From NCBI GenBank assembly GCA_016181005.1, contig JACPAE010000001.1:90508-154507 (forward strand): a DNA stretch of 64,000 nucleotides. The letters are read 5' to 3'. The translations under genes and the position numbers were made by a program. The notes below the pieces were generated by a model, which saw only the letters and a program-made list of their open reading frames with translations, did not search any database and was not told the origin of the DNA. How positions within the stretch are numbered: the first letter of the stretch is position 1; the number at the start of each line of letters is the position of its first letter. The DNA comes from Candidatus Aenigmatarchaeota archaeon. GTDB lineage: Archaea > Aenigmatarchaeota > Aenigmatarchaeia > CG10238-14 > SCSR01. Below, in pieces: positions 13,777 to 55,281 of the stretch.

Positions 13777-13884
13777 GTAATAATTGTGCAAAAGTAATAC
13801 TTATATACTTGAGTAATAATGTAATAATTATGCATCTGGAAAGATATTTAAATAGAGTCTGCGAAATAAAGAAAGAGGTTTTCC

Positions 13885-27094: not shown

Positions 27095-27113
27095 GCAATC
27101 GCTCGACTTTTTT

Positions 27114-32593: not shown

Positions 32594-33405
32594 TTCTTAA
32601 CAAATTATTTGTCTTTATTACGAGATTCAAAGACGGTTATACCTTCTTTGATAAGATAAAAATCTTTTTCCATAATGTTTTGTACATAATTCTGTATCCG
32701 ATAAACACGATTTCATTTCTTCTTTCGAGAAGGCACCTTTTACATCCTCGAGTGTTCTTTTCAGGTTTCGTAATTAAAAACTCCGATGGTACATTTTACT
32801 GCCGTGACAATGTTGATATGGATATAGTTTCAGAAAGGTTTGAGAGCGATTTAAGAAGATATTTCAAAGGCTTTAAAAGAGGGACATTTATAGATGTAGG
32901 TTCCAACATCGGGAAATACACTGTAATGATAGGGAGAGGAGGCAAGGTAAAAGTAGTCTCGATAGAACCTGAGAAAGATAATTTTCGTGCGTTAAAGAAA
33001 AACTTGGATTTGAACAACTGTAGAAATGTATTGGCTGTCAACATGGCTGCATGGAAAGAAAGAGGTGAGATAAAGTTATTCGAACATGAGGGTCAAGGTG
33101 TCTTGGCTTCTGCCACAAAACCATCTGAGACTTATACCACCGTACGTGCAGATTCAATTGATAACATCATTAATGATAACAACATCAGTGATGTAGATTT
33201 TGTAAAAATAGATGTAGAAGGCGCAGAACCTGAAGTATTGAAAGGGATGAAAAACATCCTTAGTGCTGGTAACACCAAGATAATTTTTGAAGCTTGGGAC
33301 GAAGAACATTTTAGAAAATGTATGAAGATATTGGACAAATATCGTTATGTTGCTAAAAGAATAGGCAAAATCTATTGGTTTGCGACCAAACCTAGGACTC
33401 GATAA
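32590..33405 (+). CDS. FkbM-family SAM-dependent methyltransferase
   Basis: DVGSNIGKYT and FVKIDVEGAEPEVL. Confidence 0.75.
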   Translation: MILNKLFVFITRFKDGYTFFDKIKIFFHNVLYIILYPINTISFLLSRRHLLHPRVFFSGFVIKNSDGTFYCRDNVDMDIVSERFESDLRRYFKGFKRGTFIDVGSNIGKYTVMIGRGGKVKVVSIEPEKDNFRALKKNLDLNNCRNVLAVNMAAWKERGEIKLFEHEGQGVLASATKPSETYTTVRADSIDNIINDNNISDVDFVKIDVEGAEPEVLKGMKNILSAGNTKIIFEAWDEEHFRKCMKILDKYRYVAKRIGKIYWFATKPRTR

Positions 33406-38834: not shown

Positions 38835-39935
38835 TTATAAAGCTATAAATGAATGTTCACCTACGATGAGCCTGGAAGATTTGGTTTTATCTGAAGGTAC
38901 TATATTCACTTTTCTTCCTATAACACTGTCCGTTATCTTGGTTTCACAGTCTATTTTTGCCTCGCCTATAACTATGCTACGCTCTATCCAAGCATTTTCC
39001 ACAACAGTCTGGTCACCAATCGATGCATAAGGACCTATTACAGAATTTCCGCCTATTATGCAGTTGCTTCCGATGATAGTAGGCCCTTTGATTGTTGCTC
39101 CTTTCTTGACTATAGTACCGTCACCTATGCTAACTTTACCCTGTATGTCGGCTCCTTCCTCAATTTTCCCTTTGTTGGAGGATATTATTTCATCTAGCAG
39201 AAGCGTATTCGCTTCCAGTATTCCTTCTGCATCCCCAGGATCCTTCCACCATTCTGCGTCTATTATCCGATAGTCGACCTTGCTTCCATCATCCAGCAAC
39301 CCCTGTATGGCTTCTGTTATTTCATACTCGTTTCTCCAAGACGGCTTTAGTTTGTCTATCTCGTTGAAAATTGCTTCATTGAAAAAGTATATGCCAACTA
39401 ATGCAAGATTGTTCGGTGAGGTTATTGGCTTTTCTATAAGCCTGATTATCTTCCCGTCTTTGATCTCTGCGACACCAAATCTTTGTGGGTTTGGAACATC
39501 TTTTAACAAAATCATTGCGTCCAAGTCCCCATTTTTGAAGGTGTCGACGTATTTTTTAATTCCTCCCTTTAGTATGTTGTCTCCAAGATGGACAATGAAT
39601 TTTTTATCTGCATTATCATTAACCAGAAATCCTCTGGCTACTTTAACTGCATGTGCCAGTCCTCTAGGCGCGTCCTGCTCTATGTAAGTAATCTTGATTC
39701 CGAACTTTGACCCATCGCCTATGGCATCTTTTACCTCCCTTATCTTTTCTTCTGTGTGACCTACAATAATTCCAATGTCAGTTATACCAGCATTCTTTAA
39801 AGTTTCTATCGGATAGTATATCATCGGCTTGTTCGCAAGAGGTATCAAGTGTTTGTTGCTTGTGTGGGTTATAGGCCGCAATCGAGTCCCAAGACCACCA
39901 GATAAAATCAACCCCTTCATTTTCTTCACGGTCAA
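38835..39935 (-). CDS. sugar-1-phosphate nucleotidyltransferase (RmlA/GlmU-like, NTP-transferase + C-terminal left-handed beta-helix)
   Basis: GLILSGGLGTRLRPIT signature and C-terminal hexapeptide repeats. Confidence 0.85.
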   Translation of the reverse strand: MTVKKMKGLILSGGLGTRLRPITHTSNKHLIPLANKPMIYYPIETLKNAGITDIGIIVGHTEEKIREVKDAIGDGSKFGIKITYIEQDAPRGLAHAVKVARGFLVNDNADKKFIVHLGDNILKGGIKKYVDTFKNGDLDAMILLKDVPNPQRFGVAEIKDGKIIRLIEKPITSPNNLALVGIYFFNEAIFNEIDKLKPSWRNEYEITEAIQGLLDDGSKVDYRIIDAEWWKDPGDAEGILEANTLLLDEIISSNKGKIEEGADIQGKVSIGDGTIVKKGATIKGPTIIGSNCIIGGNSVIGPYASIGDQTVVENAWIERSIVIGEAKIDCETKITDSVIGRKVNIVPSDKTKSSRLIVGEHSFIAL

Positions 39936-39985
39936 AACATATTAAGTGTTAATCTATTAAAGATATCGAATATATGCCACATAAA

Positions 39986-40795
39986 CTAGAGGTGTGCTAT
40001 TACACTCCTAACATGCGGATTTACAAGGTTGTCCTGCTTTAAAAGCTCTTTAATCTGGTACAATGTCACCCAAATAAATCCGTTGGGAACTTCAATTTCC
40101 TTATCCTCATCCGCCTCTACAAGCATGTTGTATGTACGTTTCATATAAAACCTTCCACCGTCCTCAGGTAGCCACTGTGCATAAAGCACCTTATGCTTAT
40201 CTGGATTTTCAAAGAACTCAGAAAACAAGGGCTTCCTTCCCTTGTGTAACTGTTTCAGGTTGCTAAACGTCACTTGCAAAGTTGCAGACAACTGGACTTT
40301 GCCATAGTTCCCAGGCTCGGCCTTGGCCTCGAGTAAATAGTGCGGTATGCCGTTGAATCTTTTCATTAAGATGCCTGCTATACCACTCTCATTACCTTGA
40401 TCTATCATAGGCTGGTCCCATCCTTGTCCGGCTTCACGGAACTCTGAATTTGATATCCTTACACCAATAACTGAAAAGAAACCTCCGGACTCGTGGACAA
40501 GATTCCCTGTCTTTTCGTCGAAACTCCAACCTTTAGCATCTTTAAGATTAATCTTTTCAACTCTCATCTTACATTCTTTGGCTCTATCTTCCAACCATTT
40601 CCTGACTTGCTCCAGATTGTTAAACTGGTTTTGATCGAAAATGCTTTCTGAAAAATGCTCGGCCATTGCCACTAAATTTGGATTCTCGTCCAATTTTTGT
40701 ATTGCCTCAAGCAAGGATTTTTTAACGCCTTCGTTTCTTCTAGGCATGAAATCACCTATTAAACTCGAAAATCTTTTCAAACAGCATCTGAGCAT
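39986..40795 (-). CDS. NDP-hexose 2,3-dehydratase-like protein (single EvaA-type domain), tentative
   Basis: EDGGRF motif and context with RmlB, a 3-ketoreductase and a C-methyltransferase. At 269 aa it is about half the length of two-domain EvaA. Confidence 0.35.
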   Translation of the reverse strand: MLRCCLKRFSSLIGDFMPRRNEGVKKSLLEAIQKLDENPNLVAMAEHFSESIFDQNQFNNLEQVRKWLEDRAKECKMRVEKINLKDAKGWSFDEKTGNLVHESGGFFSVIGVRISNSEFREAGQGWDQPMIDQGNESGIAGILMKRFNGIPHYLLEAKAEPGNYGKVQLSATLQVTFSNLKQLHKGRKPLFSEFFENPDKHKVLYAQWLPEDGGRFYMKRTYNMLVEADEDKEIEVPNGFIWVTLYQIKELLKQDNLVNPHVRSVIAHL

Positions 40796-41720
40796 TTAGC
40801 GCATCCTTTAAATTCGGTGAGGACTCTAGCAACTTGCCTTCAACCAAGTCTCCGAATTTGGAGATCTGGGCATCATAACCGAATGGGTCCGGCTTCCAAA
40901 ATACTGAATTTGATTCGCTGAAGAGCATTATTTGAGTTTCTGACTGGTTGAATTTTGTTAGAATAAGCTTATCCGCATTTTCAATGTATGCATGATTATT
41001 TTTGTCATCGATAGCTTCTATCCTTTCATGCACAGGAAGTCTCCAGTTTGCGGATGATGTGTAAAATAAATTAACCGTGCATCCATTTTCAGTTAGAATC
41101 GATGTTGAAATGGTTTTTCCTCTTTTGTTGTCGTTTAAGATAGAAGAAAACTTTGCATTTACTTCTTTAGGTTTTCCCAGTAACCAGCATAACAAATCGC
41201 AATAATGAATAAGGTTTTGCAATACACCTGCCTCTCCTTCCTTGCGTCCATGTTGTGTGAAGAAAGACATTGTGCAGCCTACCAGATTCCCCAACTCACC
41301 TGACTTTCTCAGCTCGTCAAACTTTATGATGCCAGGATAAAATCTTTTGTTGAATGCAACCATTAACCTGTTTGATCGATCTCCATTGGTTTCTATGAAT
41401 TCCTTGATGCTTTTCGATGAGGACGATACAGGCTTTTCCAAAAGGACGAAAAGATTGTTGTTCAGAGCCACCTGAGCTATCGAAAGATGCGAATCGACAT
41501 CGGTAGCTACAAGCACACAGTCGACTTCACCTGATTCCATGAGTTTGTTGGCGTCAGAGTATATTTTTGCATGAGGAAATTGTGATTTGATAGGCTCCAA
41601 CTTGTCCACTTTCCTTCTGCACAATGCTGTTATCCTGAATCTTTGGTCCTTAATTATTGCTGGTATGTGAGCCTTCTGCGTTACTACACCGCAACCAATT
41701 AAGCCTATTCTTATTACCAT
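40752..41720 (-). CDS. Gfo/Idh/MocA-family NAD(P)-dependent oxidoreductase (candidate NDP-sugar 3-ketoreductase)
   Basis: IRIGLIGCGVVTQKAHIPAI N-terminal Rossmann; EKP motif. Confidence 0.8.
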   Translation of the reverse strand: MVIRIGLIGCGVVTQKAHIPAIIKDQRFRITALCRRKVDKLEPIKSQFPHAKIYSDANKLMESGEVDCVLVATDVDSHLSIAQVALNNNLFVLLEKPVSSSSKSIKEFIETNGDRSNRLMVAFNKRFYPGIIKFDELRKSGELGNLVGCTMSFFTQHGRKEGEAGVLQNLIHYCDLLCWLLGKPKEVNAKFSSILNDNKRGKTISTSILTENGCTVNLFYTSSANWRLPVHERIEAIDDKNNHAYIENADKLILTKFNQSETQIMLFSESNSVFWKPDPFGYDAQISKFGDLVEGKLLESSPNLKDALNAQMLFEKIFEFNR

Positions 41721-41824
41721 TATACACCATGCCAGCTAAAGCAGCATGTGACTTCGTTGTTTAATAAAGTATTAAAAGGTAACATTTAAGTAATTAGTTT
41801 CGATGCACGCGTAAAATTTTCGGT

Positions 41825-42832
41825 GTGACGATGCAATTGCCTTCAGTCTCTATAATAATAGTAGGTTATAACAGCAAACCACATTTTGATAGTTGTTTTT
41901 CCTCAATTTCAAGGATCGGTTATTCCAAAACCAAATACGAGGTTATACTTGCCGACAATAATTCGAAAGACGGTTCTGTCGAATATGTGAAGGAAAAATT
42001 CAAATGGGTCAGAATACTGCCTTTAAAGGAGAACTACGGAGTCGCAATAGCAGTTAACAGAGCTGCAAAAATAGCGAAAGGAAAATATATAGTCATCTTG
42101 AACCCTGACACGGAAGTTGAGAAAAAATGGCTTGTCGAACTTGTAAAAGTAATGGAATCCGATAGAACTATTGGTGCGTGTGGGTCTAAGCTTTTGTACT
42201 ATGATGAGAGGGACAAGATAAATACTATAGGAGGATTTTGGAGCGTGCTCGGCTTCTCTGGCTCTTTGGGTGAAGGGGATAATAAAATTAAACATACTAA
42301 GATGAAGGAGGTCTTTTTCCCTACAGGCTCTTCGCTCATGGTAAGAAAAGATTTGTTTCTGTCTGTTGGGGGATACGATGATGACTATTTCATGTATGTT
42401 GAGGAACCTGACCTATCTTGGAGATTGTGGAATATGGGATATAGGATTGTTTCAGTGCCGTCCTCGATAGCTTACCACAAGGTTGGCGCAAGTGTGAAGA
42501 GAGGTGATGGGGGATTCAGGTCAATGGTCTACTACCATACAACAAAAAATCGTCTGGCTACAATAGTAAAGAACGCGACTTTTCTTAACGTGGCATGGAT
42601 GCTGCCTACAAGCATACTTGCACACATTTTCCAATCCCTAGTATTCTTGGCTAGAGGCAGGTTGGATGCTTCGTGGGCTGTTTTGAAAGGTATATTGTGG
42701 ATTGCACCCAACTTCGGTAAGCTGGTCGAAAAAAGAAGCCGCTTAGTTCACAACGGCAACACTTCTAAATTGATGATAGGTGTTGCCGACAGCATCAAGA
42801 TTTTCTTCTGGAAATTTAAAAAACACTTCTAG
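41825..42832 (+). CDS. glycosyltransferase family 2
   Basis: VSIIIVGYNS...ADNNSKDGS, DxD-type, GT-A fold. Confidence 0.8.
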   Translation: MTMQLPSVSIIIVGYNSKPHFDSCFSSISRIGYSKTKYEVILADNNSKDGSVEYVKEKFKWVRILPLKENYGVAIAVNRAAKIAKGKYIVILNPDTEVEKKWLVELVKVMESDRTIGACGSKLLYYDERDKINTIGGFWSVLGFSGSLGEGDNKIKHTKMKEVFFPTGSSLMVRKDLFLSVGGYDDDYFMYVEEPDLSWRLWNMGYRIVSVPSSIAYHKVGASVKRGDGGFRSMVYYHTTKNRLATIVKNATFLNVAWMLPTSILAHIFQSLVFLARGRLDASWAVLKGILWIAPNFGKLVEKRSRLVHNGNTSKLMIGVADSIKIFFWKFKKHF

Positions 42833-43786
42833 TCAAGCGTTTGACCACCATGACTCATTGTCGATATACCATTGGACAGTCTTCTTTATGGCATCGCCGA
42901 ATGTTGTACTAGGTTTCCATCCCAACCCATTCCTTATTTTCGTGTCGTCCAATGAATACCGTTCGTCATGCCCTAGTCGATCGGTTATAAAGGATATCAG
43001 ACTTTCTGGCTTGCCCAAGATTTTTAGTATTTGTTTCACTAATTCGAGATTTGTCTTCTCATTGCCGCCCTTTATGTTGTAAGTCTCGCCTAGTTTTCCT
43101 TTATGGAGGACTATGTCAACCGCCTCGCAGTTATCTAACACATATATCCAATCCCTAACTTGCTGGCCATTCCCATATATAGGTACCGGCTTGTTTCTCA
43201 AGGCATTTATCACTATTTTTGGTATGAATTTTTCAGCATTTTGAAATGGTCCGTGGTTGTTCGTTGTTCTTGTTATTAGAATCGGTGTATTGAATGTTTC
43301 AAAATAACTTTTTGTTAGCAACTCTGCTGCTGCCTTGCATGCTGCATATGGATTTCTTGGATTTAACGAATCTGTTTCCTTAAATGATCCGTTTTTTATG
43401 CTTCCATAAACCTCGTCTGTCGATATCTGTACAAATCTTTCCACATTGGTTTCCTTTGCAGCTTCTAGGAGCCTTCCAACACCCAATACTTCTGTGAGTA
43501 TGAATGACTCGGAATCTACTATACTTCTATCCACATGGGTTTCTGCGGCAAAATTCACAACAAAGTCACAATCTTTAACTGCTTTTTCCACGTCTCCCTT
43601 ATTGCATATATCGCCGTGAATGAATTCTATTTTGTCCATCACGCTTGCCAGATTCTCTTTTTTTCCAGCATAGGTCAGCTTGTCCAGGACTACAATTCCA
43701 TAGTCTGGATGCTTTTCGAGCATATAGTGCACAAAATTACTGCCTATGAAGCCACAACCACCCGTAACTAGCACTTTCTTACTCAT
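42833..43786 (-). CDS. rmlB: dTDP-glucose 4,6-dehydratase
   Basis: VLVTGGCGFIGSNFV, YAACKAA (YxxxK), 317 aa. Confidence 0.9.
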   Translation of the reverse strand: MSKKVLVTGGCGFIGSNFVHYMLEKHPDYGIVVLDKLTYAGKKENLASVMDKIEFIHGDICNKGDVEKAVKDCDFVVNFAAETHVDRSIVDSESFILTEVLGVGRLLEAAKETNVERFVQISTDEVYGSIKNGSFKETDSLNPRNPYAACKAAAELLTKSYFETFNTPILITRTTNNHGPFQNAEKFIPKIVINALRNKPVPIYGNGQQVRDWIYVLDNCEAVDIVLHKGKLGETYNIKGGNEKTNLELVKQILKILGKPESLISFITDRLGHDERYSLDDTKIRNGLGWKPSTTFGDAIKKTVQWYIDNESWWSNA

Positions 43787-44319
43787 TAAATCACTATTCC
43801 ATATTCTTCCAATTTTTCTTTTATCTTCGGTATTGTTTTAAAATCTATTTTCTCATAGTCTTCCTTGTCATAAGGATGTGATGACATTGCTAAAACTGCT
43901 ACTGGCTCATCTGTCAGCGGCAAGAAAACATGGTAAACACCTGTAGGCACATACACGTGCGCCATTTTTGAATCCTCTATTGTTATGGCTGGATCTCTGG
44001 CATTGCTAGGCGGTTCCGATCCTAGAATTATGGAGAACACTTTGTTGAACGTAGATGAATTCTTTCTCGTGTCCCAAAAAAACCAAAGTGCAGTGCCTGA
44101 TAACGTGTAAAAATTCTCTATCGTTTTCTTGTGCAGGCAACCTGCACGTGGAATATGCTTCTTATTTGCGACTGATATGTAAACATTTTTCACTCCAGCA
44201 CTAAAAAAGGGATCCTGCATTCCTAATGGGGCCAATTCAGCCAGAAATCCTCTGTTGTCCTTCAATACTTTGTTCAGCCTTATCATTAGGCCTTCTATAT
44301 CAGTCTTTATTATTTCCAT
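43786..44319 (-). CDS. rmlC: dTDP-4-dehydrorhamnose 3,5-epimerase-like (cupin)
   Basis: 177 aa, RmlC-like N-terminus (DNRGFLAEL), directly downstream of rmlB. Confidence 0.75.
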   Translation of the reverse strand: MEIIKTDIEGLMIRLNKVLKDNRGFLAELAPLGMQDPFFSAGVKNVYISVANKKHIPRAGCLHKKTIENFYTLSGTALWFFWDTRKNSSTFNKVFSIILGSEPPSNARDPAITIEDSKMAHVYVPTGVYHVFLPLTDEPVAVLAMSSHPYDKEDYEKIDFKTIPKIKEKLEEYGIVI

Positions 44320-48371: not shown

Positions 48372-49274
48372 CTACTCTCTTACTCCATATTTTTTTGACA
48401 TGAAGTTATTGATATCCAAAACTGCTTCTAAACCTTTGGTTTCCACATTCCTTTCTTTGAGGAAAGATACAAAAGCTTCCAAATCCTTAGGCAGGCAATT
48501 GCCACCGAATGCTTTCCCATGAACGGTTCCGTATTTGCCTATTCTATTGTCTGTGCTTACAATTTCAGCCACCTTTTTTGAGTCTATACCAAAAGCTTGG
48601 CATATTAGAAACAGTTCGTTCCAATAAGATATCTTGCTGGCAAGATTAAGATTGTGTGCGTATTTAATCATTTCTGCTGTTTTGGCATCTGTCCTGAAAA
48701 TAGGCACGTTAAGTGGCTTGAAAAGCTCTTCTAATACTTCGCCGGATTTATGATCATATTCGCCTATAACAATTTTGTCTTCGAATTTTTTGATACTAAA
48801 TGGATTAGCTTCATACCATCTTTTCAGTTCCGGATCCGTGGTGGTTTTGTTCACCTGCGTCAAGAATTCTGGGCTGGCGCACAAACCAAAGTCTTTTCCA
48901 CATACTTTGCCTGAGTAATTCTCCAAAATTTCCTTTACAATAGTCTCTGTTGTAGTTGGTATGACTGTACTTTTAACAACAACCAAATGATATGTGTCCT
49001 TCTGTTTCAATTGTTTGCCTACGGCTTCGGTTGCAGACTTTATGTAACTCAAGTCTATTTTGCCGTCCTTTGTCGGAGTCGGCACGCATATGAAAGATAC
49101 ATCGCTTTTTCCCATGGCTTCCGTTATGTCATCTGTGGCTTTGTATCCATCATTTTTAAGTCTCTCTATAAGCTCCTTGTTAATATCGTAGAAAATTACA
49201 TCATTCTTTCCTAGAAGGAGCTGACCTATTGAGGCCCCTACATAACCCGAACCGATTATACTTACCTTTGCCAA
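48372..49274 (-). CDS. UDP-glucose/GDP-mannose dehydrogenase family protein lacking the C-terminal UDP-sugar-binding domain
   Basis: NAD-binding N-domain and a central domain with catalytic GGNCLPKD. It ends about 45 aa later at a convergent gene boundary (300 aa versus about 400-440 typical). Confidence 0.65.
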   Translation of the reverse strand: MAKVSIIGSGYVGASIGQLLLGKNDVIFYDINKELIERLKNDGYKATDDITEAMGKSDVSFICVPTPTKDGKIDLSYIKSATEAVGKQLKQKDTYHLVVVKSTVIPTTTETIVKEILENYSGKVCGKDFGLCASPEFLTQVNKTTTDPELKRWYEANPFSIKKFEDKIVIGEYDHKSGEVLEELFKPLNVPIFRTDAKTAEMIKYAHNLNLASKISYWNELFLICQAFGIDSKKVAEIVSTDNRIGKYGTVHGKAFGGNCLPKDLEAFVSFLKERNVETKGLEAVLDINNFMSKKYGVRE

Positions 49275-49326: not shown

Positions 49327-50463
49327 CTATGAAAAGAATTCTTTTATCTTAGTAGACACGTAGGTTATCTGCTCATCTGTCAACTCAGGGTACATTGGGA
49401 TGCTAAGTATCTCCTTTGAAACCTTCTCTGTAACTGGCAAGTCTCCTTCCTTATAACCCAAAGCTTTATAGGCCTGTTGAAGATGTAATGGAATAGGATA
49501 GTATATCTGAGTAGATATACCATTCTGTTTCAAAAAGTCTGCCAACTGATCCCGTTTACTTGTTCTTATTGTATAAACATAAAAAACATGCTTACAATCG
49601 TCCGCTTGGACAGGTAGTATGAGATTTTTTACACCTGACAAGAGCTCGTTATATAGCTTTGCATTCTTTCTCCTCTGTTCATTAAACTTTTCCAAAAATT
49701 TTAGTTTGACATTCAGAATTGCAGCCTGTATGTTAGCCATCCTATAATTAAATCCGATTATGTCGTGCTCGTATTTCTTTCCTTTGGCCCTTCCATGGTC
49801 TAGCAACATTGAAACCTTTTCGGCTATAGCTTCGTCATTAGTCACGACACATCCTGCATCGCCGAATGCACCCAGATTCTTAGCCGGAAAAAAACTGAAA
49901 CAGCCTATATCGCTCACGGGTACTCTCTTCTCTTTATACTCTGCACCGTGTGCTTGTGCACAATCTTCTATCACAGCAAGGCTGTACTTATCTGCCAACT
50001 CTTTTATCGCGTCCATGTCGCACGACTGTCCATAGAGATGGACAGGTATAATTGCCTTTGTTTTATCGTTTATTTTCTGCTCGATATGTTCAGTGTTAAT
50101 GTTGTAGGTGTTTTCGTCTATATCCACAAACTTTGGTAAAGCTCCCGCATGCACGATTGAAGCCGCCGTCGCTGTAAAGGTGTTTGCAACTGTTATAACC
50201 TCGTCTCCCTTTTGTATACCTGTGGCTCTAAGTGCCAGTTCCAAAGCAGTTGTGCATGAACTGCAACCGATAGCAAATTTTGAGCCGCAGAATTTTGCAA
50301 AATCTTGCTCAAATTCTTCTTTTGCTTTTCCTTTTATGAATTGTGTACTATCTATTACATCCTGAATAGCAGTGTCTATGTCATTTTTTAATTTCAAATA
50401 TTGTGTTTTGAGATCTACCAATGGAATTTTCATTTTAGCCATTAGATTATCTATTACCTTCAT
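49327..50463 (-). CDS. DegT/DnrJ/EryC1/StrS-family PLP-dependent sugar aminotransferase
   Basis: 378 aa, typical fold-type I family pattern. Confidence 0.9.
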   Translation of the reverse strand: MKVIDNLMAKMKIPLVDLKTQYLKLKNDIDTAIQDVIDSTQFIKGKAKEEFEQDFAKFCGSKFAIGCSSCTTALELALRATGIQKGDEVITVANTFTATAASIVHAGALPKFVDIDENTYNINTEHIEQKINDKTKAIIPVHLYGQSCDMDAIKELADKYSLAVIEDCAQAHGAEYKEKRVPVSDIGCFSFFPAKNLGAFGDAGCVVTNDEAIAEKVSMLLDHGRAKGKKYEHDIIGFNYRMANIQAAILNVKLKFLEKFNEQRRKNAKLYNELLSGVKNLILPVQADDCKHVFYVYTIRTSKRDQLADFLKQNGISTQIYYPIPLHLQQAYKALGYKEGDLPVTEKVSKEILSIPMYPELTDEQITYVSTKIKEFFS

Positions 50464-51187
50464 CGTTTATGAATCGAACGATTTGTGCAGGTATTCCCAT
50501 TACCAGTGCACGAGACGGTACATCTTTTGTGACTACTGCAGACGATGCTACTATTGCGTTATCCCCAATGACCACACCCGGAAGAAGGCTAGCATTTGCA
50601 CCAATTGCTGCCCCATTGCCTATTTTTGGACCTTTTATATGTTCCTTCCCATGTCCTCCCTTACCGAATGTGTTATCGTTGGTAGTTGCTACCAGTGTAC
50701 TGATAAAGACGTCTTCACCAATTTCGCAATTGCCTGTTATATGCGTGAGATCCATTATCTTCGTTCTGTTACCGATATGGGAATTGTAGCTTATGGTCAC
50801 ACCCCTCCCAATTACACAGAACTCTCCAATAGTCACTCTTTCTCTTATCGATACGTTATCACCGATGAGAGTGTTTTTTCCAATAAAAACATCGTAATAA
50901 ATGATTGCATTTGGGCCGATTGAACAATTTTCTCCGATAATTATTCTTTCTTTTTCGTACTCTGGTTCTCTGGTCAGTGCACCTGAGTTTTTTGGACGCT
51001 TTCCCAAGTATGCTCCTGGAAAGATTTCCACATTATTGCCTATAGTTACACCTGTCTCTATTATTACATTTGGGTGGATGGTAACATTATTTCCCAGAAT
51101 AACACCGGATTTGATAATGGCGAAATTTCCTATTGAAACGTTTTCTCCAATTTGGGTCGTCTCTACTATAGCAGTTTTTTCTATCAT
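50447..51187 (-). CDS. left-handed beta-helix (hexapeptide-repeat) sugar N-acyltransferase
   Basis: Continuous [LIV]G-x4 hexapeptide repeats. Overlaps both neighbours, so translationally coupled. Confidence 0.8.
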   Translation of the reverse strand: MIEKTAIVETTQIGENVSIGNFAIIKSGVILGNNVTIHPNVIIETGVTIGNNVEIFPGAYLGKRPKNSGALTREPEYEKERIIIGENCSIGPNAIIYYDVFIGKNTLIGDNVSIRERVTIGEFCVIGRGVTISYNSHIGNRTKIMDLTHITGNCEIGEDVFISTLVATTNDNTFGKGGHGKEHIKGPKIGNGAAIGANASLLPGVVIGDNAIVASSAVVTKDVPSRALVMGIPAQIVRFINDEGNR

Positions 51188-52176
51188 TCTTCCAACCTCT
51201 GTGTATCGAGGGTTTCGAGTATATCTTTCACTACATCCTCACCGATAAGCGAGATTATCTGGAAGGGTCCCATTACATGGTTTAATCCTAGTTTTATAGC
51301 TTCATCAATCTCTTCTTTGCTAGCAATCCCTTCTTCTACCATTTTTATGGCTTCTTTCAACTGAACCATAAGCAAGCGGTTTACGATGAAACCTGGTGAA
51401 TCGTGTACAACGATAGGTTTCTTGCCTAATCTCTCACAAAAATATAGTGCATCTTTTATTAATCTATCCGGTGTACTGTCAGTCTTCACTACTTCCACTA
51501 GCTTCATTTTGTTGACAGGATTAAAGAAATGGAGCCCTATCGTTCTGTTTTCTGCTCCTTTCGGAGAAAGGTAGGAAATTGGAATTGATGAGGTGTTTGA
51601 AGCTATAGTGCATTGCGTTGTTTGGCTGACTTTCTCAAGTACTTTTCTTTTTATTTCCTTGTCCTCACTCACGCATTCTATAACAAGACCGCATGGGGCA
51701 AGATCATTAAAATCTGTCGTTATTTTTAATAGTTGAATTTTTTTTCCAGTGTTATCGTGATCATTTGATTTTGATAGAATAGAATACAAAGATTCACGGA
51801 TTGTGTCTTTCTTATTGTTGTCTCGTGTCTTGACTATCGTCTTGAACCAATTATCTATAAGCAACGCTGCAATTCCAATTCCCATTTTCCCGCTACCTAT
51901 AACACCAACTATAATATTTTCGTTGTGGTGGTAATCCTGTATTATATGCGTTCCTCTAGCTACATCAGACCCTCTTTTAATTAATTTTTTCTCGTTACCA
52001 TTATCTGCTAGAAGCAGGAAATAAGGCGCGTTGTGTTTCTTAGAACCTGACAATACCTCACTCGAGTAAAGTACCTTAAAATCAGATAGTTTATTTTCTA
52101 CAATATTTCCATCGCAATAAATACATTCTTTTATTTCGTGGTTCCATTTACGATGGCAGTTAGAACACTCAAACAT
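51184..52176 (-). CDS. DUF35 (Zn-ribbon + OB fold) fused to 3-hydroxyacyl-CoA dehydrogenase
   Basis: N-terminal CSNCHRKW...CIYCDG plus KVLYSSEVLSG...APYFLLLADNGNEKKLIKRG (DUF35 pattern). Then GVIGSGKMGIGIA, SNTSSI, HFFNPV, PGFIVNRLL (HBD signatures). Confidence 0.8.
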   Translation of the reverse strand: MFECSNCHRKWNHEIKECIYCDGNIVENKLSDFKVLYSSEVLSGSKKHNAPYFLLLADNGNEKKLIKRGSDVARGTHIIQDYHHNENIIVGVIGSGKMGIGIAALLIDNWFKTIVKTRDNNKKDTIRESLYSILSKSNDHDNTGKKIQLLKITTDFNDLAPCGLVIECVSEDKEIKRKVLEKVSQTTQCTIASNTSSIPISYLSPKGAENRTIGLHFFNPVNKMKLVEVVKTDSTPDRLIKDALYFCERLGKKPIVVHDSPGFIVNRLLMVQLKEAIKMVEEGIASKEEIDEAIKLGLNHVMGPFQIISLIGEDVVKDILETLDTQRLEE

Positions 52177-53299
52177 ATATATTTCCTTTTAATATTGTTA
52201 CAACAGCACTTCCACCAGAACCTCCTATATTATGAGCTAGTCCGTACGCACGTTTTTTTACCTGTCTATCTCCAGCCTCTCCACGAAGTTGAGTGACTAA
52301 CTCGGTAATTTGAGCCACTCCAGTGGCTCCTATTGGATGACCGTCTGCTTTGAGACCGCCGTCTGTGTTAACTGGGAATTCGCCTGTAATACTGGTATTC
52401 AAGTCGGACGCTTTGCCGAATTTGCAAAACCCAATTGATTCGAGAGAAACGAGTTCATTTATCGTGAAACAGTCATGAATTTCGGCTAGTGAAATGTCAT
52501 TTGGTTTTATAGAGGCTTTGTTAAATGCCATTTTTGACGCTTTTTCAGTAGCTTTCATTTTAATGATGTCTTCCCGTTGGGTGATTGATAATGTATCAAC
52601 AGCCATTTCACTAGATAATATTTCGACATCTCTTTCGCTGGATTTTGTTGCCGATAGTATTACTGCAGCAGCTCCGTCTGAGATTGGACTGCAATCGAAT
52701 AGGCGCAACGGACTGCAAACAACAGGTGATTCTTTTATTTCATTCAATGTGACTTTCTTGTGGTAAAAATGAGCGAGTGGATTCTTGTTTGCATTCTCGT
52801 GGTTTTTTAGAGATATTCTATCCAACGCTTCGTGAGTAACACCATATTTATCGAAATATTCTGAAGCAATTAGAGCGTATGCTGCTGGATATGTCAATCC
52901 ATTATCTTGTTCCAGCCGTAAGTCGGCAGCAGACGCGAGTGCATCAGTAACTGTTGACACGTCACGATTGGTCATTTTCTCAACACCTACAACCAACACG
53001 TTTTCATAATTGTTTAAAAGTTTTGTAGCTAGATTGAATGCCGCACCACCGCTTGCACAAGCACTTTCTACTCTGATGCTCTGTTTATCAAACCCTGGAA
53101 GAAGGCTGGCTATTAATGAGTTTAAATGAGATTGGTTGTCTATCGTTCCTCCAAAAAAATTTGAGACAATGCATGCATCTATATCTTCTACACTAATTTT
53201 AGCGTCTTTTTTTGCATTTAATATCGCTTCGTACATCAATTGTGGTATCTGTTCTCTAAGCACACCAAATTTCGTGCGACCTACGCCACGTATGAACAT
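52169..53299 (-). CDS. archaeal-type thiolase (acetyl-CoA C-acetyltransferase / SCP-x-like)
   Basis: ESACASGGAA catalytic Cys, NTDGGL, GHPIGATG. Confidence 0.85.
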   Translation of the reverse strand: MFIRGVGRTKFGVLREQIPQLMYEAILNAKKDAKISVEDIDACIVSNFFGGTIDNQSHLNSLIASLLPGFDKQSIRVESACASGGAAFNLATKLLNNYENVLVVGVEKMTNRDVSTVTDALASAADLRLEQDNGLTYPAAYALIASEYFDKYGVTHEALDRISLKNHENANKNPLAHFYHKKVTLNEIKESPVVCSPLRLFDCSPISDGAAAVILSATKSSERDVEILSSEMAVDTLSITQREDIIKMKATEKASKMAFNKASIKPNDISLAEIHDCFTINELVSLESIGFCKFGKASDLNTSITGEFPVNTDGGLKADGHPIGATGVAQITELVTQLRGEAGDRQVKKRAYGLAHNIGGSGGSAVVTILKGNIYV

Positions 53300-53337
53300 A
53301 TCTAGAATATAAATGAAAGTGTTTATATACTTGTTTG

Positions 53338-54337
53338 CTATAATGCATTTTCTAGATTAACCGGCACTCCGTTTTGTGCAGATTTCATAGCAGCTTCGAG
53401 TATTTTGACTATTTCCAAGCCAACTTTTCCATCGGATATTGGCCTCTTTCTGGTTTGAATACACTCAATAAAATGTTTCAACTCCTCTTTAAGAGGTTCT
53501 ATATTTTCTAGGCTAAGTGCTGATTTACCGCCTTCGCGCGTTATTATCTTATAATCACCGAATGAATTGGATATTGGGTAAGATCCTGAATCATAAACAA
53601 CAAGTTCGTTCTTCATCGAATCAACAAAAGCACTTTTCTTTTCACCGACTATCCAAAAATCACGGAGCTTTACAGGGGATAACCAACCAACTTGAGAATA
53701 CCCTAGAACACCGCTTTTGAATTTTGCAACTATAAGAGCAAAATCTTCAAACTCTCTTTTTAAAGTATTGGTTGTTATTGCAGTTATTTCTGTCGGTCGT
53801 TCATCTAAAATATTTGTTATTATATCGAAATCATGAACTGCGAAATTAAAAATTACACCACAGTCTTCACGTGGCTTTCTGAGACCCATTCGCATTAATG
53901 AAAGGTAGTGTATATTACCGAACTCTCCAGAAACTTTTAATTCTTTAGCCTTTTTGACAGCTGGATCAAAGCGGAATGTATGACCTACCATTAGTATTAC
54001 GTTGTTTTTTTCAGCTGTTTCCACCATATTTTCAGCGTCAGTTCTATTAAGCGCCAATGGCTTCTCAACTAACACATGTTTTCCAGCGTTCATACATTCT
54101 ATGGCTATTGAGGCATGTGTTGAAGCCGGTGTACATATACTTATTGCTTCTATATCGCTGTTTATGATATCTTTATAGTTTTTTGTAACACTGGTACCCA
54201 ATTTTTGGGCATCTTTTAAAGCGTTGTCATTCAAGTCAGAAACCATTTTTAACTCAATGTTTTCAAGTGAACGATATATTCGTATATGATTACGCCCCCA
54301 TTGACCTGCACCTATTACACCTACTTTCGTGTATCAT
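53338..54337 (-). pseudogene. Gfo/Idh/MocA-family oxidoreductase with +1 frameshift at codon 4 (or sequencing indel)
   Basis: The table ORF (53338-54246) begins after the Rossmann motif. In frame upstream, directly after a TGA, lies YTKVGVIGAGQWGRNHIRIY. An ATG at 54337 in the +1 frame reads MIHE and then joins with a 1-nt slip next to an AAA run. Confidence 0.65.
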
Positions 54338-54382
54338 CACCTTTTCAGATTTATTTATAAATCTTAAAGTTTAAAAAGGAAC

Positions 54383-54841
54383 ATGAAAATTTTGATGCCG
54401 ACAAGCCCTGGTGGACATTTGAAACAGAGCCTATTGCTGGCCAATCGTCTTAAAATGAAGTTTGATTTAGTTTTCGTAACTTACAAGACGCCTCTAACAA
54501 AAGAAATTTTAAAAAACTACAATACAGAGTTCGTTATAGATCCGTATAGGGGAATAAAATCACTGTTTAGATATCCTGTCCTAGTACTTCAAGCTTTAGG
54601 TATACTACTAAAAGAGAGACCCAATGCAATTGTTACTCCCGGTTCAAATATACCTATACCATTCTGCTACTTGGGCAAACTGTTAGGTATAAAGGTTATT
54701 TTCATAGAAAGCTGGTCTAGGGTCAAGACTCGTTCCACATCTGGTAAATTTGCATATAAGATAGCAGATCTATTTTTTATTCAATGGAAACCCTTAAAAA
54801 AACTCTATCCTAAAGCTGTATATGCCGGTAGGTTTATGTGA
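54383..54841 (+). CDS. Alg14-like membrane-anchor subunit of split GT28 glycosyltransferase
   Basis: 152 aa with PF08660-like pattern (SPGGHL...IESWSRV). Confidence 0.65.
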   Translation: MKILMPTSPGGHLKQSLLLANRLKMKFDLVFVTYKTPLTKEILKNYNTEFVIDPYRGIKSLFRYPVLVLQALGILLKERPNAIVTPGSNIPIPFCYLGKLLGIKVIFIESWSRVKTRSTSGKFAYKIADLFFIQWKPLKKLYPKAVYAGRFM

Positions 54842-55281
54842 TATTCGTAATTGCTGGGGAACCAAGTTTTGAAGAATTGATAAAAGAAATCGATAGAATA
54901 GTACCGGAATTAAAAGAACCTGTAATAGCGCAGATAGGAAACGGTAAATATATCCCAAAAAATTGCAAATGGTTCAGAGTTCATTTTCCTCTATATCCAT
55001 ATTATAAGAAAGCAGATATTATTGTGTCGCATCATGGCGCAGGCACTATATTTGAGGTGCTGAAATTTCACAAAAAGCTTATTTGTGTGGAAAATGCTTT
55101 CAAAGGACGCAATCCGGATCTCATGAGTGAGTTAAGTAAAGGAGGGTATTTGATTGATTGTAAAAAAATTAGTGACTTGAAGAAATGTATTAGTTTGGCT
55201 AGAAAAACAAAGATAAAAAAATACAAGTCCCCTAAATGTGAAATTGGCGAAACAATTATAAAATTTTTGAACCGGGATTAA
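54838..55281 (+). CDS. Alg13-like catalytic subunit (GT28 C-terminal domain)
   Basis: SHHGAGTIFE glycosyltransferase-28 C-domain. Overlaps the Alg14-like stop. Confidence 0.65.
   Translation: MIFVIAGEPSFEELIKEIDRIVPELKEPVIAQIGNGKYIPKNCKWFRVHFPLYPYYKKADIIVSHHGAGTIFEVLKFHKKLICVENAFKGRNPDLMSELSKGGYLIDCKKISDLKKCISLARKTKIKKYKSPKCEIGETIIKFLNRD

What the first reader, a model, noticed from the sequence alone, without database searches (positions are those of the whole stretch)
49327..53299. Tightly overlapping operon thiolase / DUF35-3-hydroxyacyl-CoA dehydrogenase fusion / LbH acyltransferase / DegT aminotransferase: predicted N-(3-hydroxybutanoyl) amino sugar
The four genes overlap by 4-17 nt and are embedded in the glycan island. 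An archaeal thiolase plus an HBD would convert 2 acetyl-CoA to 3-hydroxybutyryl-CoA. The DegT enzyme makes an NDP-amino sugar, and the hexapeptide-repeat enzyme N-acylates it. The HBD carries an N-terminal Zn-ribbon/OB DUF35 domain. In archaea that domain is the scaffold bridging thiolase to HMG-CoA synthase for intermediate channelling. Fusing it to a reductase and placing it next to a thiolase suggests an analogous channelled thiolase-reductase complex, dedicated here to glycan decoration.
Basis: partly seen in the sequence, partly recalled or inferred. Interest (0 to 1): 0.6.

Follow-up and report, generated by a model that had tools for sequence, protein, structure and literature searches.

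The report
Private 3-hydroxybutyryl supply for archaeal glycan
A tiny DPANN archaeon carries, inside its surface-sugar gene island, a four-gene operon that most likely makes its own 3-hydroxybutyryl-CoA (with the reductase tethered to the thiolase by a small docking domain) and attaches it to a 3-amino sugar; the same cassette recurs in other archaea and had not been described in the papers I could search.

Summary
Four minus-strand genes overlap by 8, 4 and 17 nt inside a glycan island that runs from AglB/STT3 to Alg14/Alg13: an archaeal-type thiolase, a Zn-ribbon/OB + 3-hydroxyacyl-CoA dehydrogenase (HBD) fusion, a QdtC/WlbB-like hexapeptide N-acyltransferase, and a C-3-type DegT aminotransferase.

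In 8 of 8 other fusion loci examined a 46-62% identical thiolase sits immediately upstream. A hexapeptide transferase lies next to or near it in 7 of 8. All contigs long enough to judge are glycan loci.

The same docking domain is fused to a non-homologous SDR ketoreductase in an equivalent glycan cassette, and to DUF362 elsewhere, always beside a thiolase.

Best reading: two acetyl-CoA are converted to (S)-3-hydroxybutyryl-CoA by a tethered thiolase-reductase pair, and that group is then N-linked to a 3-amino sugar, probably UDP-GlcNAc3N.

Acyl-donor specificity and complex formation remain inferred. I rate this a new variant of known kinds, with interest about 0.6.

The parts
52169..53299 (-). 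Archaeal-type (DUF35-partnered, SCP2-like) acetoacetyl-CoA thiolase, 376 aa. Carries Cys81 (ACASG), His275 (HDCF) and His321 (GHP).
   Evidence: Pfam Thiolase_C_1 9e-44 and Thiolase_N 2e-20. NCBIfam PRK06064 scores 416 bits and AcCoTHIOL_METTL 358 bits. Best PDB hits are 7yvy 2e-76 and 6esq_A 1e-74, the thiolase of the thiolase/HMGCS/DUF35 complex. It is 46-62% identical to the thiolase directly upstream of every related fusion gene.
51937..52176 (-). N-terminal DUF35-like domain of the fusion (residues 1-80). It has a 4-Cys zinc ribbon (C4, C7, C18, C21) followed by a five-stranded OB fold. It is the proposed thiolase-docking module.
51184..51912 (-). 3-hydroxyacyl-CoA dehydrogenase (HBD) domain of the fusion (residues 89-330 plus stop). 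Carries GSGKMG 94-99, Ser196, His216, Glu228 and Asn266. It lacks the last ~35 residues of typical HBDs. A flexible linker spans residues 81-88.
   Evidence: Pfam 3HCDH_N 8e-41 and 3HCDH 1e-18, matching only profile positions 1-64 of 97. PDB hits are 3mog 2e-44 and 9fbd 4e-42. Invariant catalytic columns are seen and positions. The full-length AF2 model has pLDDT 85.5, with only residues 81-86 below 50.
50447..51187 (-). Left-handed beta-helix (hexapeptide) sugar N-acyltransferase, 246 aa. It is the proposed 3-hydroxybutanoyl transferase.
   Evidence: Pfam Hexapep 2e-42. Best PDB hits are QdtC 3fs8 at 1.9e-27 over residues 19-239, FdtD-like 4mzu, and WlbB 3mqg at 1.6e-18. The closest LbH among the compared loci is the one in the SDR-type cassette L093, with 31% identity over 231 aa and E 4e-36.
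49327..50463 (-). DegT/DnrJ/EryC1 PLP-dependent sugar aminotransferase, 378 aa, of the C-3 aminotransferase type.
   Evidence: Pfam DegT 3e-129. PDB hits are 7b0d 1e-118, QdtB 3frk 7e-107, DesV 2oga 2e-87 and WbpE 4e-77. It is 48% identical to the Methanolobus psychrotolerans DegT, which overlaps a GFO gene next to the cassette.
53338..54337 (-). GFO/IDH/MocA oxidoreductase resembling archaeal UDP-GlcNAc 3-dehydrogenase (WbpB-like). The listed ORF is 53338-54246. The Rossmann segment KVGVIGAGQWGRNH is encoded in frame upstream (54247-54333) but has no start codon. The ATG at 54337 is one base out of frame.
   Evidence: NCBIfam NF040723 UDP-GlcNAcDh_Arch 1.5e-62, matching profile positions 30-301. 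Pfam GFO_IDH_MocA starts at profile position 38. GFO and DegT are coupled in L001 and L005.
48372..49274 (-). Truncated nucleotide-sugar dehydrogenase-like gene, 300 aa with a TTG start. It has the N-terminal and central domains and the GGNCLPKD Cys motif but no C-terminal UDP-binding domain. It is probably a separate transcription unit.
   Evidence: Pfam UDPG_MGDP_dh_N and UDPG_MGDP_dh are present but UDPG_MGDP_dh_C is not. TIGR03026 matches profile positions 61-298 of 413. The convergent epimerase gene ends at 48369.
53322..53329 (-). TATA-like box TATATAAA in the 38-nt GFO-thiolase spacer, centred about 26 nt upstream of the thiolase ATG. It is a possible promoter of a leaderless four-gene mRNA.
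   Evidence: Read directly from the sequence. The spacing rule for archaeal TATA boxes is general knowledge and was not tested here.

Best explanation
The operon is a self-contained unit for decorating a glycan with an N-(3-hydroxybutanoyl) 3-amino sugar.

**Proposed steps**
1. The archaeal-type thiolase condenses two acetyl-CoA to acetoacetyl-CoA, a thermodynamically uphill reaction.
2. The next gene product is an NAD(P)H-dependent 3-hydroxyacyl-CoA dehydrogenase. Its 80-residue N-terminal DUF35-type Zn-ribbon/OB domain, joined by a flexible linker, docks it on the thiolase. Acetoacetyl-CoA is therefore reduced at once to (S)-3-hydroxybutyryl-CoA, which pulls the condensation forward.
3. In parallel, a nucleotide sugar is oxidised at C-3. 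This is most likely UDP-GlcNAc, acted on by the adjacent WbpB-like GFO dehydrogenase. The DegT enzyme then transaminates it to the 3-amine.
4. The QdtC/WlbB-like hexapeptide transferase moves the 3-hydroxybutanoyl group onto that amine.
5. The product is built into the N-glycan or surface glycan encoded by the surrounding island.

**Shown here:** gene identities, intact catalytic motifs, the DUF35 relationship of the N-domain, and conservation of the thiolase-fusion-acyltransferase cassette in glycan loci of distant taxa.

**Inferred:** physical docking, direction of flux, acyl-donor specificity of the LbH, identity of the sugar, and stereochemistry.
For: - **Anatomy and domains:**
- **Catalytic residues.** HBD Ser196, His216, Glu228, Asn266 and the GxGxxG motif are invariant in 34 family members. 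The thiolase has Cys81, His275 and His321.
- **The N-domain is DUF35-type.**
  - The family profile's best PDB hit is 6esq_E.
  - 6 of 23 members hit PF12172 and one hits PF01796.
  - All eight 100-148 aa proteins retrieved in the tail of a 1.84-billion-protein search pass Pfam PF01796.
  - hhalign gives 99.0% probability.
- **Linker.** It is disordered in the full-length model.
- **Synteny.** In 8 of 8 related fusion loci a 46-62% identical thiolase lies directly upstream, often overlapping. These loci include another DPANN MAG, Methanolobus psychrotolerans, a Methanobacteriota MAG and a 'bacterium' MAG. An LbH is adjacent or nearby in 7 of 8. An amine-generating gene (DegT+GFO, or Polysacc_deac_1/DUF3473) accompanies the cassette in the window and in 5 of those 8 loci.
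- **Convergent case.** In L093/L094 the same thiolase (54% identical) and the closest LbH (E 4e-36) flank a DUF35-like domain fused to an SDR ketoreductase instead of an HBD, again in a glycan locus.
- **Thiolase adjacency.** DUF35-like N-domain proteins sit one or two genes from a thiolase in all 13 contigs that extend past the gene. The two short contigs L091 and L096 cannot be judged.
- **C-3 chemistry.** DegT is closest to QdtB, DesV and WbpE. The LbH is closest to QdtC and WlbB. The GFO gene is closest to archaeal UDP-GlcNAc 3-dehydrogenase.
- **Precedents.** DUF35 bridges thiolase to the next enzyme in PDB 6ESQ. In S. acidocaldarius, KT/DUF35 binds a ketoacyl-CoA reductase and a dehydratase (bioRxiv 10.1101/2024.07.05.601840). 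The DUF35 domain of Shy copurifies with the thiolase-like Sal (PMC11321319 abstract).
- **The target sugar exists.** N-(3-hydroxybutanoyl) 3-amino sugars are known in bacteria (PMC4869667).
Against: - The domain lacks the N-terminal helix segment of canonical DUF35 (alignment), so the binding mode could differ.
- The HBD lacks the C-terminal ~35 residues conserved in most of the family.
- The LbH is most similar to characterised N-acetyltransferases, and nothing in the sequence demonstrates a larger acyl pocket.
- LbH types differ between cassettes, from 172 to 282 aa.
- The GFO gene appears frameshifted and the downstream dehydrogenase is truncated, so the pathway may be incomplete in this MAG.
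- The island also has dTDP-deoxysugar genes, so the acceptor could be dTDP-Qui3N or Fuc3N instead.
- No glycan structure or biochemistry exists for this organism.
Confidence: 0.65

Rival explanations
1. The LbH is an ordinary N-acetyltransferase of a WbpB/WbpE/WbpD- or QdtA/B/C-type pathway that makes a 3-acetamido sugar. On this view the thiolase and HBD fusion serve another purpose, such as general acetoacetyl-CoA metabolism or feeding isoprenoid, lipid or storage pathways, and merely sit in the island.
For: The best characterised relatives of the LbH (QdtC, WlbB) use acetyl-CoA. In L001 the LbH most similar to the window's (E 1e-24) sits in a DegT-GFO-LbH operon, not next to the thiolase. 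LbH subtypes differ among cassettes.
Against: The four genes overlap and are translationally coupled. The thiolase-fusion-LbH order recurs across distant taxa and always in glycan loci. An SDR-reductase version shows the same association, with the closest LbH. No HMG-CoA synthase, PHA synthase or beta-oxidation genes lie nearby in the window. L005 and the window each have only this one LbH to acylate the DegT product.
Confidence: 0.13
2. The cassette supplies a different acyl group. Candidates are acetoacetyl, a longer or branched 3-hydroxyacyl made from another acyl-CoA primer, or an O-linked rather than N-linked 3-hydroxybutanoyl ester.
For: Thiolases of this class and 3HCDH enzymes can act on several chain lengths (NCBIfam matches to generic 'thiolase domain-containing' and 3-hydroxyacyl-CoA dehydrogenase models). 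The LbH superfamily includes O-acyltransferases. DUF362- and unknown-domain fusions in the same slot imply that other chemistries exist.
Against: The closest NCBIfam and PDB matches of the reductase are 3-hydroxybutyryl-CoA dehydrogenases. A reduced DPANN genome is unlikely to offer primers other than acetyl-CoA (general knowledge, not tested). Amine-generating enzymes accompany the cassette, and the LbH is closest to N-acyltransferases.
Confidence: 0.12
3. The N-terminal Zn-ribbon/OB is a generic fold. It could bind nucleic acid or CoA, or be purely structural, and does not dock the enzyme on the thiolase. On this view the two enzymes act as free proteins.
Against: All 13 contigs that extend past the gene have a thiolase one or two genes from the DUF35-like protein, whatever the fused enzyme is. 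Three of the DUF35 entries matched here are, by their PDB titles, complexes with a thiolase-fold protein (6esq, 6ok1, 7pxp). Cassette thiolases are more conserved than the fused enzymes.
Confidence: 0.1

Closest known systems
Archaeal acetoacetyl-CoA thiolase / HMG-CoA synthase / DUF35 complex (Methanothermococcus thermolithotrophicus, PDB 6ESQ/6ET9)
   Same: The thiolase is of the same type (6esq_A 1e-74). The DUF35 Zn-ribbon/OB module is the best sequence-profile and structural match to the N-domain. The logic is also shared: an uphill Claisen condensation is coupled to the next, favourable enzyme.
   Different: Here DUF35 is not a separate scaffold protein. It is covalently fused to the second enzyme and lacks the N-terminal segment. 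The partner is a reductase rather than HMG-CoA synthase, and the product feeds glycan decoration rather than isoprenoids.
Sulfolobus acidocaldarius ketothiolase/DUF35 + ketoacyl-CoA reductase + MaoC dehydratase assembly (bioRxiv 10.1101/2024.07.05.601840)
   Same: A thiolase/DUF35 pair recruits a ketoacyl-CoA reductase so that condensation is pulled by reduction.
   Different: In that system DUF35 is free, the reductase is an (R)-specific NADPH-dependent SDR, and the pathway iterates to fatty acids. Here there is one round only, the reductase is of the 3HCDH type (expected S-specific), it is fused, and the context is a glycan locus.
ChsH2(MaoC-DUF35)-Ltp2 and Shy-Sal of bacterial steroid side-chain degradation (PDB 6OK1; PMC11321319)
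   Different: In those proteins DUF35 is C-terminal to a MaoC hydratase, the partner is a retro-aldolase rather than a true thiolase, and the pathway is catabolic and bacterial.
WbpB/WbpE/WbpD (WlbA/C/B) pathway to UDP-2,3-diacetamido sugars, and QdtA/QdtB/QdtC pathway to dTDP-Quip3NAc
   Same: There is a C-3 oxidoreductase-like gene (NF040723 1.5e-62), a C-3-type aminotransferase (QdtB 7e-107, WbpE 4e-77) and an LbH N-acyltransferase (QdtC 2e-27, WlbB 2e-18). The five-enzyme Wbp pathway is summarised in PMC10622841.
   Different: Those pathways use acetyl-CoA from the general pool. Here a thiolase and a reductase are inserted between the dehydrogenase and the acyltransferase genes. All NCBIfam scores are below the equivalog cut-offs, and the GFO gene looks frameshifted.
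Bacterial O-antigen/capsule loci for N-(3-hydroxybutanoyl) amino sugars (FdhC/QdhC with FdtAB/QdtAB; QhbA/QhbB of Acinetobacter)
   Same: The predicted end product is the same kind of sugar, such as Fuc3N(3Hb), Qui3N(3Hb) or QuiNAc4N(3Hb). These loci also pair an aminotransferase with a dedicated acyltransferase (PMC4869667; PMC3628348).
   Different: No thiolase or reductase genes are described in those loci, so the donor presumably comes from general metabolism. Reported groups there are often the (R) isomer. From memory and not checked here, FdhC is a GNAT rather than an LbH.

Membership tests
DUF35 (Pfam PF12172 zf-ChsH2 + PF01796 OB_ChsH2_C) | Match to the Pfam HMMs above the gathering score | tested here: not met
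   No hit for the window protein or its isolated N-terminus, even at E<=10. Among 23 family members, 6 give sub-threshold PF12172 hits (best 2.5e-4) and one gives PF01796 at 3.3e-3.
DUF35 (Pfam PF12172 zf-ChsH2 + PF01796 OB_ChsH2_C) | Four-cysteine rubredoxin-like zinc ribbon directly followed by an OB-fold barrel | tested here: met
DUF35 (Pfam PF12172 zf-ChsH2 + PF01796 OB_ChsH2_C) | Profile-level homology to bona fide DUF35 proteins | tested here: met
   The family profile's best PDB hit is 6esq_E at E 0.0075, and it also hits 6htj and 7pxp. It retrieves eight 100-148 aa proteins at library-wide E of 6e-5 to 4e-4, all of which pass PF01796. hhalign gives 99.0% probability and E 3.8e-18 over 87 columns. 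Caveat: the comparison set was chosen from hits of the same profile.
DUF35 (Pfam PF12172 zf-ChsH2 + PF01796 OB_ChsH2_C) | N-terminal segment preceding the zinc ribbon, present in canonical ~130 aa DUF35 proteins | tested here: not met
   The domain starts at the first Cys (residue 4). Canonical members have 10-33 extra N-terminal residues.
DUF35 (Pfam PF12172 zf-ChsH2 + PF01796 OB_ChsH2_C) | Physical association with a thiolase-fold protein | not testable with these tools
   Only genomic evidence is available. A thiolase lies one or two genes away in all 13 contigs that extend past the gene. The two short contigs L091 and L096 cannot be judged.
3-hydroxyacyl-CoA dehydrogenase (3HCDH; Hbd/HADH type) | 3HCDH_N Rossmann domain with GxGxxG, and the Ser-His-Glu-Asn catalytic set | tested here: met
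   PF02737 at 8e-41. GSGKMG 94-99, S196, H216, E228 and N266 lie in invariant columns. Their assignment to human HADH S137/H158/E170/N208 is by spacing and from memory.
3-hydroxyacyl-CoA dehydrogenase (3HCDH; Hbd/HADH type) | Complete C-terminal helical domain | tested here: inconclusive
   PF00725 matches only profile positions 1-64 of 97. The window protein and its closest relative P0002 lack the conserved KLGxKTGxGFYxY tail present in the other 32 family members. The model is still confident up to residue ~328.
Archaeal DUF35-partnered thiolase (PRK06064 / AcCoTHIOL_METTL type) | Full-length similarity with a nucleophilic Cys and the HDCF/GHP histidines | tested here: met
   PRK06064 scores 415.8 bits against a cut-off of 420. 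AcCoTHIOL_METTL scores 358 bits against a cut-off of 600, so it is not an equivalog. PDB 6esq_A matches at 1e-74 over residues 3-370.
WbpB/WbpE/WbpD-type UDP-GlcNAc3N(acyl) pathway | Intact UDP-GlcNAc(A) 3-dehydrogenase, a C-3 aminotransferase and an LbH N-acyltransferase encoded together | tested here: inconclusive
   All three gene types are present and adjacent. All score below the equivalog cut-offs. The dehydrogenase has no in-frame start upstream of its Rossmann motif. Substrate identity cannot be tested.
3-hydroxybutanoyl-transferring sugar N-acyltransferases | Use of 3-hydroxybutanoyl-CoA as donor | not testable with these tools
   This is inferred only from conserved linkage to a thiolase plus a reductase.

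The most novel reading that the evidence does not exclude
The DUF35-like N-domain may define a general plug-in docking system. One conserved archaeal-type thiolase would recruit interchangeable second enzymes that each carry this ~80-residue tag: a 3HCDH reductase, an SDR ketoreductase, DUF362 proteins, and domains with no Pfam match. This would create dedicated two-enzyme metabolons. They would supply unusual acyl groups for glycan decoration and, in other lineages, feed fatty-acid-synthase-like operons. If true, it would also give DUF362 its first functional context as an enzyme acting on a thiolase product.
Probability: 0.4. Interest if true: 0.75.

Novelty: new variant of a known kind. Interest (0 to 1): 0.6.

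Why it matters
- **A new role for DUF35.** DUF35 is known as a free scaffold around thiolases (mevalonate pathway, archaeal fatty-acid synthesis) and as a fused tether in steroid catabolism. Finding it fused to a 3-hydroxybutyryl-CoA dehydrogenase, and elsewhere to an SDR reductase, next to a conserved thiolase inside glycan loci extends that principle to cell-surface biosynthesis.
- **Donor supply in a reduced genome.** It explains how organisms with minimal metabolism (DPANN archaea) can make an acyl donor they would otherwise lack.
- **Concrete predictions.** It predicts a modification, an N-(3-hydroxybutanoyl) 3-amino sugar, that I found no report of in archaeal glycans, and a simple testable protein complex. 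Methanolobus psychrotolerans, for which a named-species genome assembly exists, carries the cassette and could be used for the test.
- **Annotation gap.** The family is currently labelled only '3-hydroxyacyl-CoA dehydrogenase family protein', and the docking domain is invisible to Pfam.

Tried and rejected
- **Pfam on the window protein and on its isolated N-terminus.** No DUF35 hit.
- **The single genome-contig scan with the full-length family alignment.** It was swamped by ordinary bacterial HBDs. Only 1 of 80 loci (L009) was a fusion, because the patterns chosen lay in the HBD domain. A query restricted to the N-domain would have been better.
- **Literature searches.** I looked for thiolase or HBD genes in polysaccharide loci, for 3-hydroxybutanoyl in archaeal glycans, and for 3-hydroxybutanoyl-CoA N-acyltransferase enzymology. 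Nothing relevant came back. The library lacks most subscription-journal papers, so absence there is weak evidence.
- **An autotrophic 3HP/4HB or beta-oxidation context.** Rejected. No enoyl-CoA hydratase, acyl-CoA dehydrogenase, 4-hydroxybutyryl-CoA dehydratase or carboxylase lies in the window island or in the HBD-fusion loci.
- **A second DUF35 or thiolase in the window.** None found.
- **The TATA-like element at 54361-54352 as the operon promoter.** Rejected as ambiguous. It lies 26 nt from the divergent Alg14 ATG, so it fits that gene better.
- **Cluster-member names.** They gave little taxonomy.

Full report
**1. Observation**

- thiolase, 53299..52169 (376 aa)
- a 330-aa protein, 52176..51184
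- a hexapeptide-repeat protein, 51187..50447 (246 aa)
- a DegT aminotransferase, 50463..49327 (378 aa)

Successive genes overlap by 8, 4 and 17 nt. Pfam and NCBIfam give Thiolase_N/Thiolase_C_1, 3HCDH_N+3HCDH on residues 90-325 only, Hexapep, and DegT_DnrJ_EryC1 at 3e-129.

The window protein is 100% identical to a protein of a Candidatus Aenigmarchaeota (DPANN) MAG, where it is annotated only as '3-hydroxyacyl-CoA dehydrogenase family protein'.

The surroundings are a glycan island. It runs from AglB/STT3 (24980-27148) through GT4s, a flippase, a PF00953 GT, an NDP-sugar pyrophosphorylase, a 4,6-dehydratase, a 2,3-dehydratase, C- and other methyltransferases and Asn synthase, to an Alg14/Alg13-like pair at 54383-55281. 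Its G+C is lower than the flanks, 0.36-0.41 against 0.44-0.50.

**2.

Thirty-eight nucleotides upstream lies a GFO/IDH/MocA gene. Its best NCBIfam match is the archaeal UDP-GlcNAc 3-dehydrogenase model (1.5e-62, below the equivalog cut-off).
- The listed ORF (54246..53338) lacks the Rossmann GxGxxG.
- The motif KVGVIGAGQWGRNH is encoded immediately upstream in the same frame, but behind two stop codons.
- The only plausible start (ATG 54337) is one base out of frame across a GAAAG run.
- This is either an assembly error or a real frameshift.

Downstream, after a 52-nt spacer with an oligo-T run, is a nucleotide-sugar dehydrogenase-like gene of only 300 aa. It lacks the C-terminal UDP-binding domain.

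A TATATAAA box centred about 26 nt upstream of the thiolase ATG sits in the GFO-thiolase spacer. This fits a leaderless four-gene transcript, although I did not test it.

**3. Is the N-terminal extension a DUF35 domain?**

Neither PF01796 nor PF12172 hits the window protein, even when the first 88 residues are scanned alone at E<=10.
- **A family exists.** About 60 clusters of roughly 364-aa proteins share the extension. In 23-34 aligned members the four cysteines (C4, C7, C18, C21), P51, Y52 and G75 are invariant.
- **Profile against PDB.** A profile of the extension has the DUF35 chain of the thiolase/HMGCS complex (6esq_E, E 0.0075) as its best PDB match. The DUF35-fold proteins 6htj and 7pxp (BbsA) are also among the top five.
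- **Pfam on family members.** Six of 23 give sub-threshold PF12172 hits and one gives PF01796.
- **Large-scale search.** The profile searched against 1.84 billion representatives finds only 157 proteins at E<=1e-3. Eight hits in the tail (library-wide E of 6e-5 to 4e-4) are 100-148 aa proteins, and all eight pass Pfam PF01796.
- **Profile-profile comparison.** hhalign between the two alignments gives 99.0% probability and E 3.8e-18 over 87 columns. The caveat is that the canonical set was drawn from hits of the same profile.

I conclude that this is a divergent, minimal DUF35. It keeps the zinc ribbon and the OB barrel but lacks the N-terminal segment of canonical members. In the full-length model the two domains are each confident and are joined by a linker (residues 81-86) with pLDDT below 50, which suggests a flexible tether.

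**4. The enzymes**

- **HBD domain.** It keeps GSGKMG and the Ser196/His216/Glu228/Asn266 set in invariant columns. Its best matches are 3-hydroxybutyryl-CoA dehydrogenases. It and its closest relative lack the roughly 35 C-terminal residues (KLGxKTGxGFYxY) that the rest of the family has. The consequence is unknown.
- **Thiolase.** It is of the archaeal, DUF35-partnered type (7yvy 2e-76, 6esq_A 1e-74). It has Cys81, His275 and His321.
- **DegT.** Its closest solved relatives include the C-3 aminotransferases QdtB, DesV and WbpE.
- **LbH.** Its closest solved relatives are QdtC and WlbB, both 3-amino-sugar N-acetyltransferases.

**5. Related loci**

I examined eight further fusion loci. They include the closest relative (47% identity), Methanolobus psychrotolerans, a Methanobacteriota MAG, a 'bacterium' MAG and groundwater metagenome contigs.
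- In 8 of 8 a thiolase 46-62% identical to the window's lies immediately upstream, often overlapping.
- In 7 of 8 a hexapeptide transferase is adjacent or within about 1 kb.
- In the seven loci with enough flanking sequence, the neighbours are glycosyltransferases, nucleotide-sugar enzymes and flippases.

The source of the amine varies. It is DegT plus GFO, overlapping each other, in the window, L001 and L005. It is a Polysacc_deac_1/DUF3473 deacetylase in L003, L004 and L008. The LbH subtype also varies, from 172 to 282 aa, with one PglD-like. The constant core is therefore thiolase plus fusion, which acts as a donor-supply module that plugs into different amino-sugar pathways.

**6. Convergent evidence**

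Among the 150 best proteins carrying the N-domain, 29 are HBD fusions and 33 are DUF362 fusions. The rest are fragments or carry other C-terminal domains.

One of them, P0185, is fused to an SDR/KR-type ketoreductase. Its locus (L093/L094) reads GT4, thiolase (54% identical to the window's), [DUF35-like-SDR], LbH, FemAB-like, GT, UDP-sugar dehydrogenase, 2-epimerase, deacetylase. That LbH is the best match to the window LbH of all those compared (31% over 231 aa, E 4e-36). Two non-homologous acetoacetyl-CoA-type reductases occupying the same tethered slot, beside the same thiolase and the same kind of acyltransferase in glycan loci, is the strongest argument that the product used is a 3-hydroxyacyl-CoA.

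The DUF362 fusions sit in two kinds of context:
- an equivalent cassette of deacetylase, thiolase, fusion, GNAT and radical SAM (L089);
- operons resembling fatty-acid-synthesis sets, with FabA-like, SDR and thiolase genes (L090, L092, L095).

Across all 13 contigs that extend past the gene, a thiolase is one or two genes away. The two short contigs L091 and L096 cannot be judged.

**7. Mechanism proposed**

The steps are:
1. 2 acetyl-CoA → acetoacetyl-CoA (thiolase; an unfavourable reaction).
2. Acetoacetyl-CoA → (S)-3-hydroxybutyryl-CoA (HBD held on the thiolase by its DUF35 tag).
3. UDP-GlcNAc → 3-keto → 3-amino (GFO, then DegT).
4. N-acylation by the LbH.
5. Incorporation into the glycan.

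The pulling role of a tethered second enzyme follows published DUF35 systems:
- the thiolase/HMGCS/DUF35 complex (PDB 6ESQ);
- the S. acidocaldarius KT/DUF35 complex, which binds a ketoacyl-CoA reductase and a dehydratase (10.1101/2024.07.05.601840);
- Shy, whose DUF35 domain copurifies with the thiolase-like Sal (PMC11321319).

N-(3-hydroxybutanoyl) 3-amino sugars and their transferases (FdhC, QdhC, QhbA) are known in bacteria. No donor-synthesis genes are described in those loci (PMC4869667; PMC3628348).

Docking, flux direction, donor specificity, sugar identity and stereochemistry are inferred, not shown. UDP-GlcNAc3N is favoured over dTDP-Qui3N/Fuc3N because GFO and DegT are coupled in three loci. 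The island also carries dTDP-deoxysugar genes, including a cupin with a weak FdtA match, so the acceptor is uncertain.

**8. Weak points**

- The HBD lacks its C-terminal tail.
- The characterised relatives of the LbH are acetyltransferases.
- The flanking dehydrogenase genes look damaged in this MAG.
- I have no biochemical or glycan data.
- The literature library lacks most subscription journals, so 'not described' is provisional.

**9. Verdict**

It should be extended to include the 3-dehydrogenase gene, the family, the SDR analogue and the wider DUF35-tag pattern. It should be corrected on two points: there is no Pfam hit, and fused DUF35 tethers have precedent. I classify it as a new variant of known kinds, with interest 0.6 and confidence in the main mechanism of about 0.65.

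Noticed in passing
window 54246-54340 (minus strand): The UDP-GlcNAc 3-dehydrogenase-like GFO gene has its Rossmann motif (KVGVIGAGQWGRNH) encoded in frame upstream of the listed ORF, but behind two stop codons. The only start (ATG 54337) is one base out of frame across a GAAAG run. This is an apparent 1-nt frameshift, either an assembly error or a pseudogene.
   Followed up: partly
window 48372-49274 (minus strand): A nucleotide-sugar dehydrogenase-like gene of only 300 aa with a TTG start. It keeps the GGNCLPKD cysteine motif. It lacks the C-terminal UDP-binding domain and about 20 residues of the N-domain, and it abuts a convergent epimerase gene.
   Followed up: partly
L089 2613-4013; L090 8001-9488; L092 5329-6795; L095 8001-9041: The same DUF35-like N-domain is fused to DUF362 (PF04015) in 33 of the 150 best family representatives. 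In L089 it sits in a cassette of deacetylase, thiolase, fusion, GNAT and radical SAM. In L090, L092 and L095 it sits with FabA-like dehydratase, SDR and thiolase genes, resembling the proposed archaeal fatty-acid synthase set. This gives DUF362 a possible functional context.
   Followed up: partly
L093/L094 6875-9701: A DUF35-like domain is fused to an SDR/KR ketoreductase (P0185). It lies directly after a thiolase 54% identical to the window's and next to the closest homologue of the window's LbH, in a groundwater-metagenome glycan locus. It would probably be an (R)-specific counterpart of the window cassette.
   Followed up: yes
family representatives P0144, P0214, P0227, P0136, P0174, P0199, P0237: Further proteins of 266-404 aa carry the DUF35-like N-domain followed by C-terminal regions with no Pfam match at E<=1e-4. 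These are additional, unknown fusion partners.
   Followed up: no
window 51184-51290 (C-terminus of the fusion): The window HBD and its closest relative P0002 lack the conserved C-terminal ~35 residues (KYKPxxLLxxMVxEGKLGxKTGEGFYxY) present in the other 32 aligned family members. The window gene ends in an ATGA overlap with the LbH start.
   Followed up: partly
window 33392-34606, 38835-44319: The island holds a second, separate deoxysugar pathway. It comprises an NDP-sugar pyrophosphorylase with an LbH tail, an NDP-hexose 2,3-dehydratase, another GFO oxidoreductase, a 4,6-dehydratase, an RmlC/FdtA-like cupin and a sugar C-methyltransferase. This suggests a branched or 2,6-dideoxy sugar in the same glycan.
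   Followed up: no
window 54352-54361: A near-palindromic TATA-like element, TTTATAAATA, lies in the divergent spacer. It is centred about 26 nt from the Alg14-like ATG at 54383, which fits a leaderless Alg14/Alg13 transcript. It could be bidirectional.
   Followed up: no
window 12001-14000 and 28000-56000: G+C falls to 0.31 at 12-14 kb and to 0.36-0.41 across the glycan island, against 0.44-0.50 elsewhere. This is compatible with horizontally acquired or fast-evolving surface-glycan genes.
   Followed up: no
A1 alignment, columns after beta-2 of the Rossmann fold (window residues 115-118): Most family members have K-x-R-S after strand beta-2 where the window protein has K-T-R-D. This hints at different NADH versus NADPH preference within the family.
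   Followed up: no
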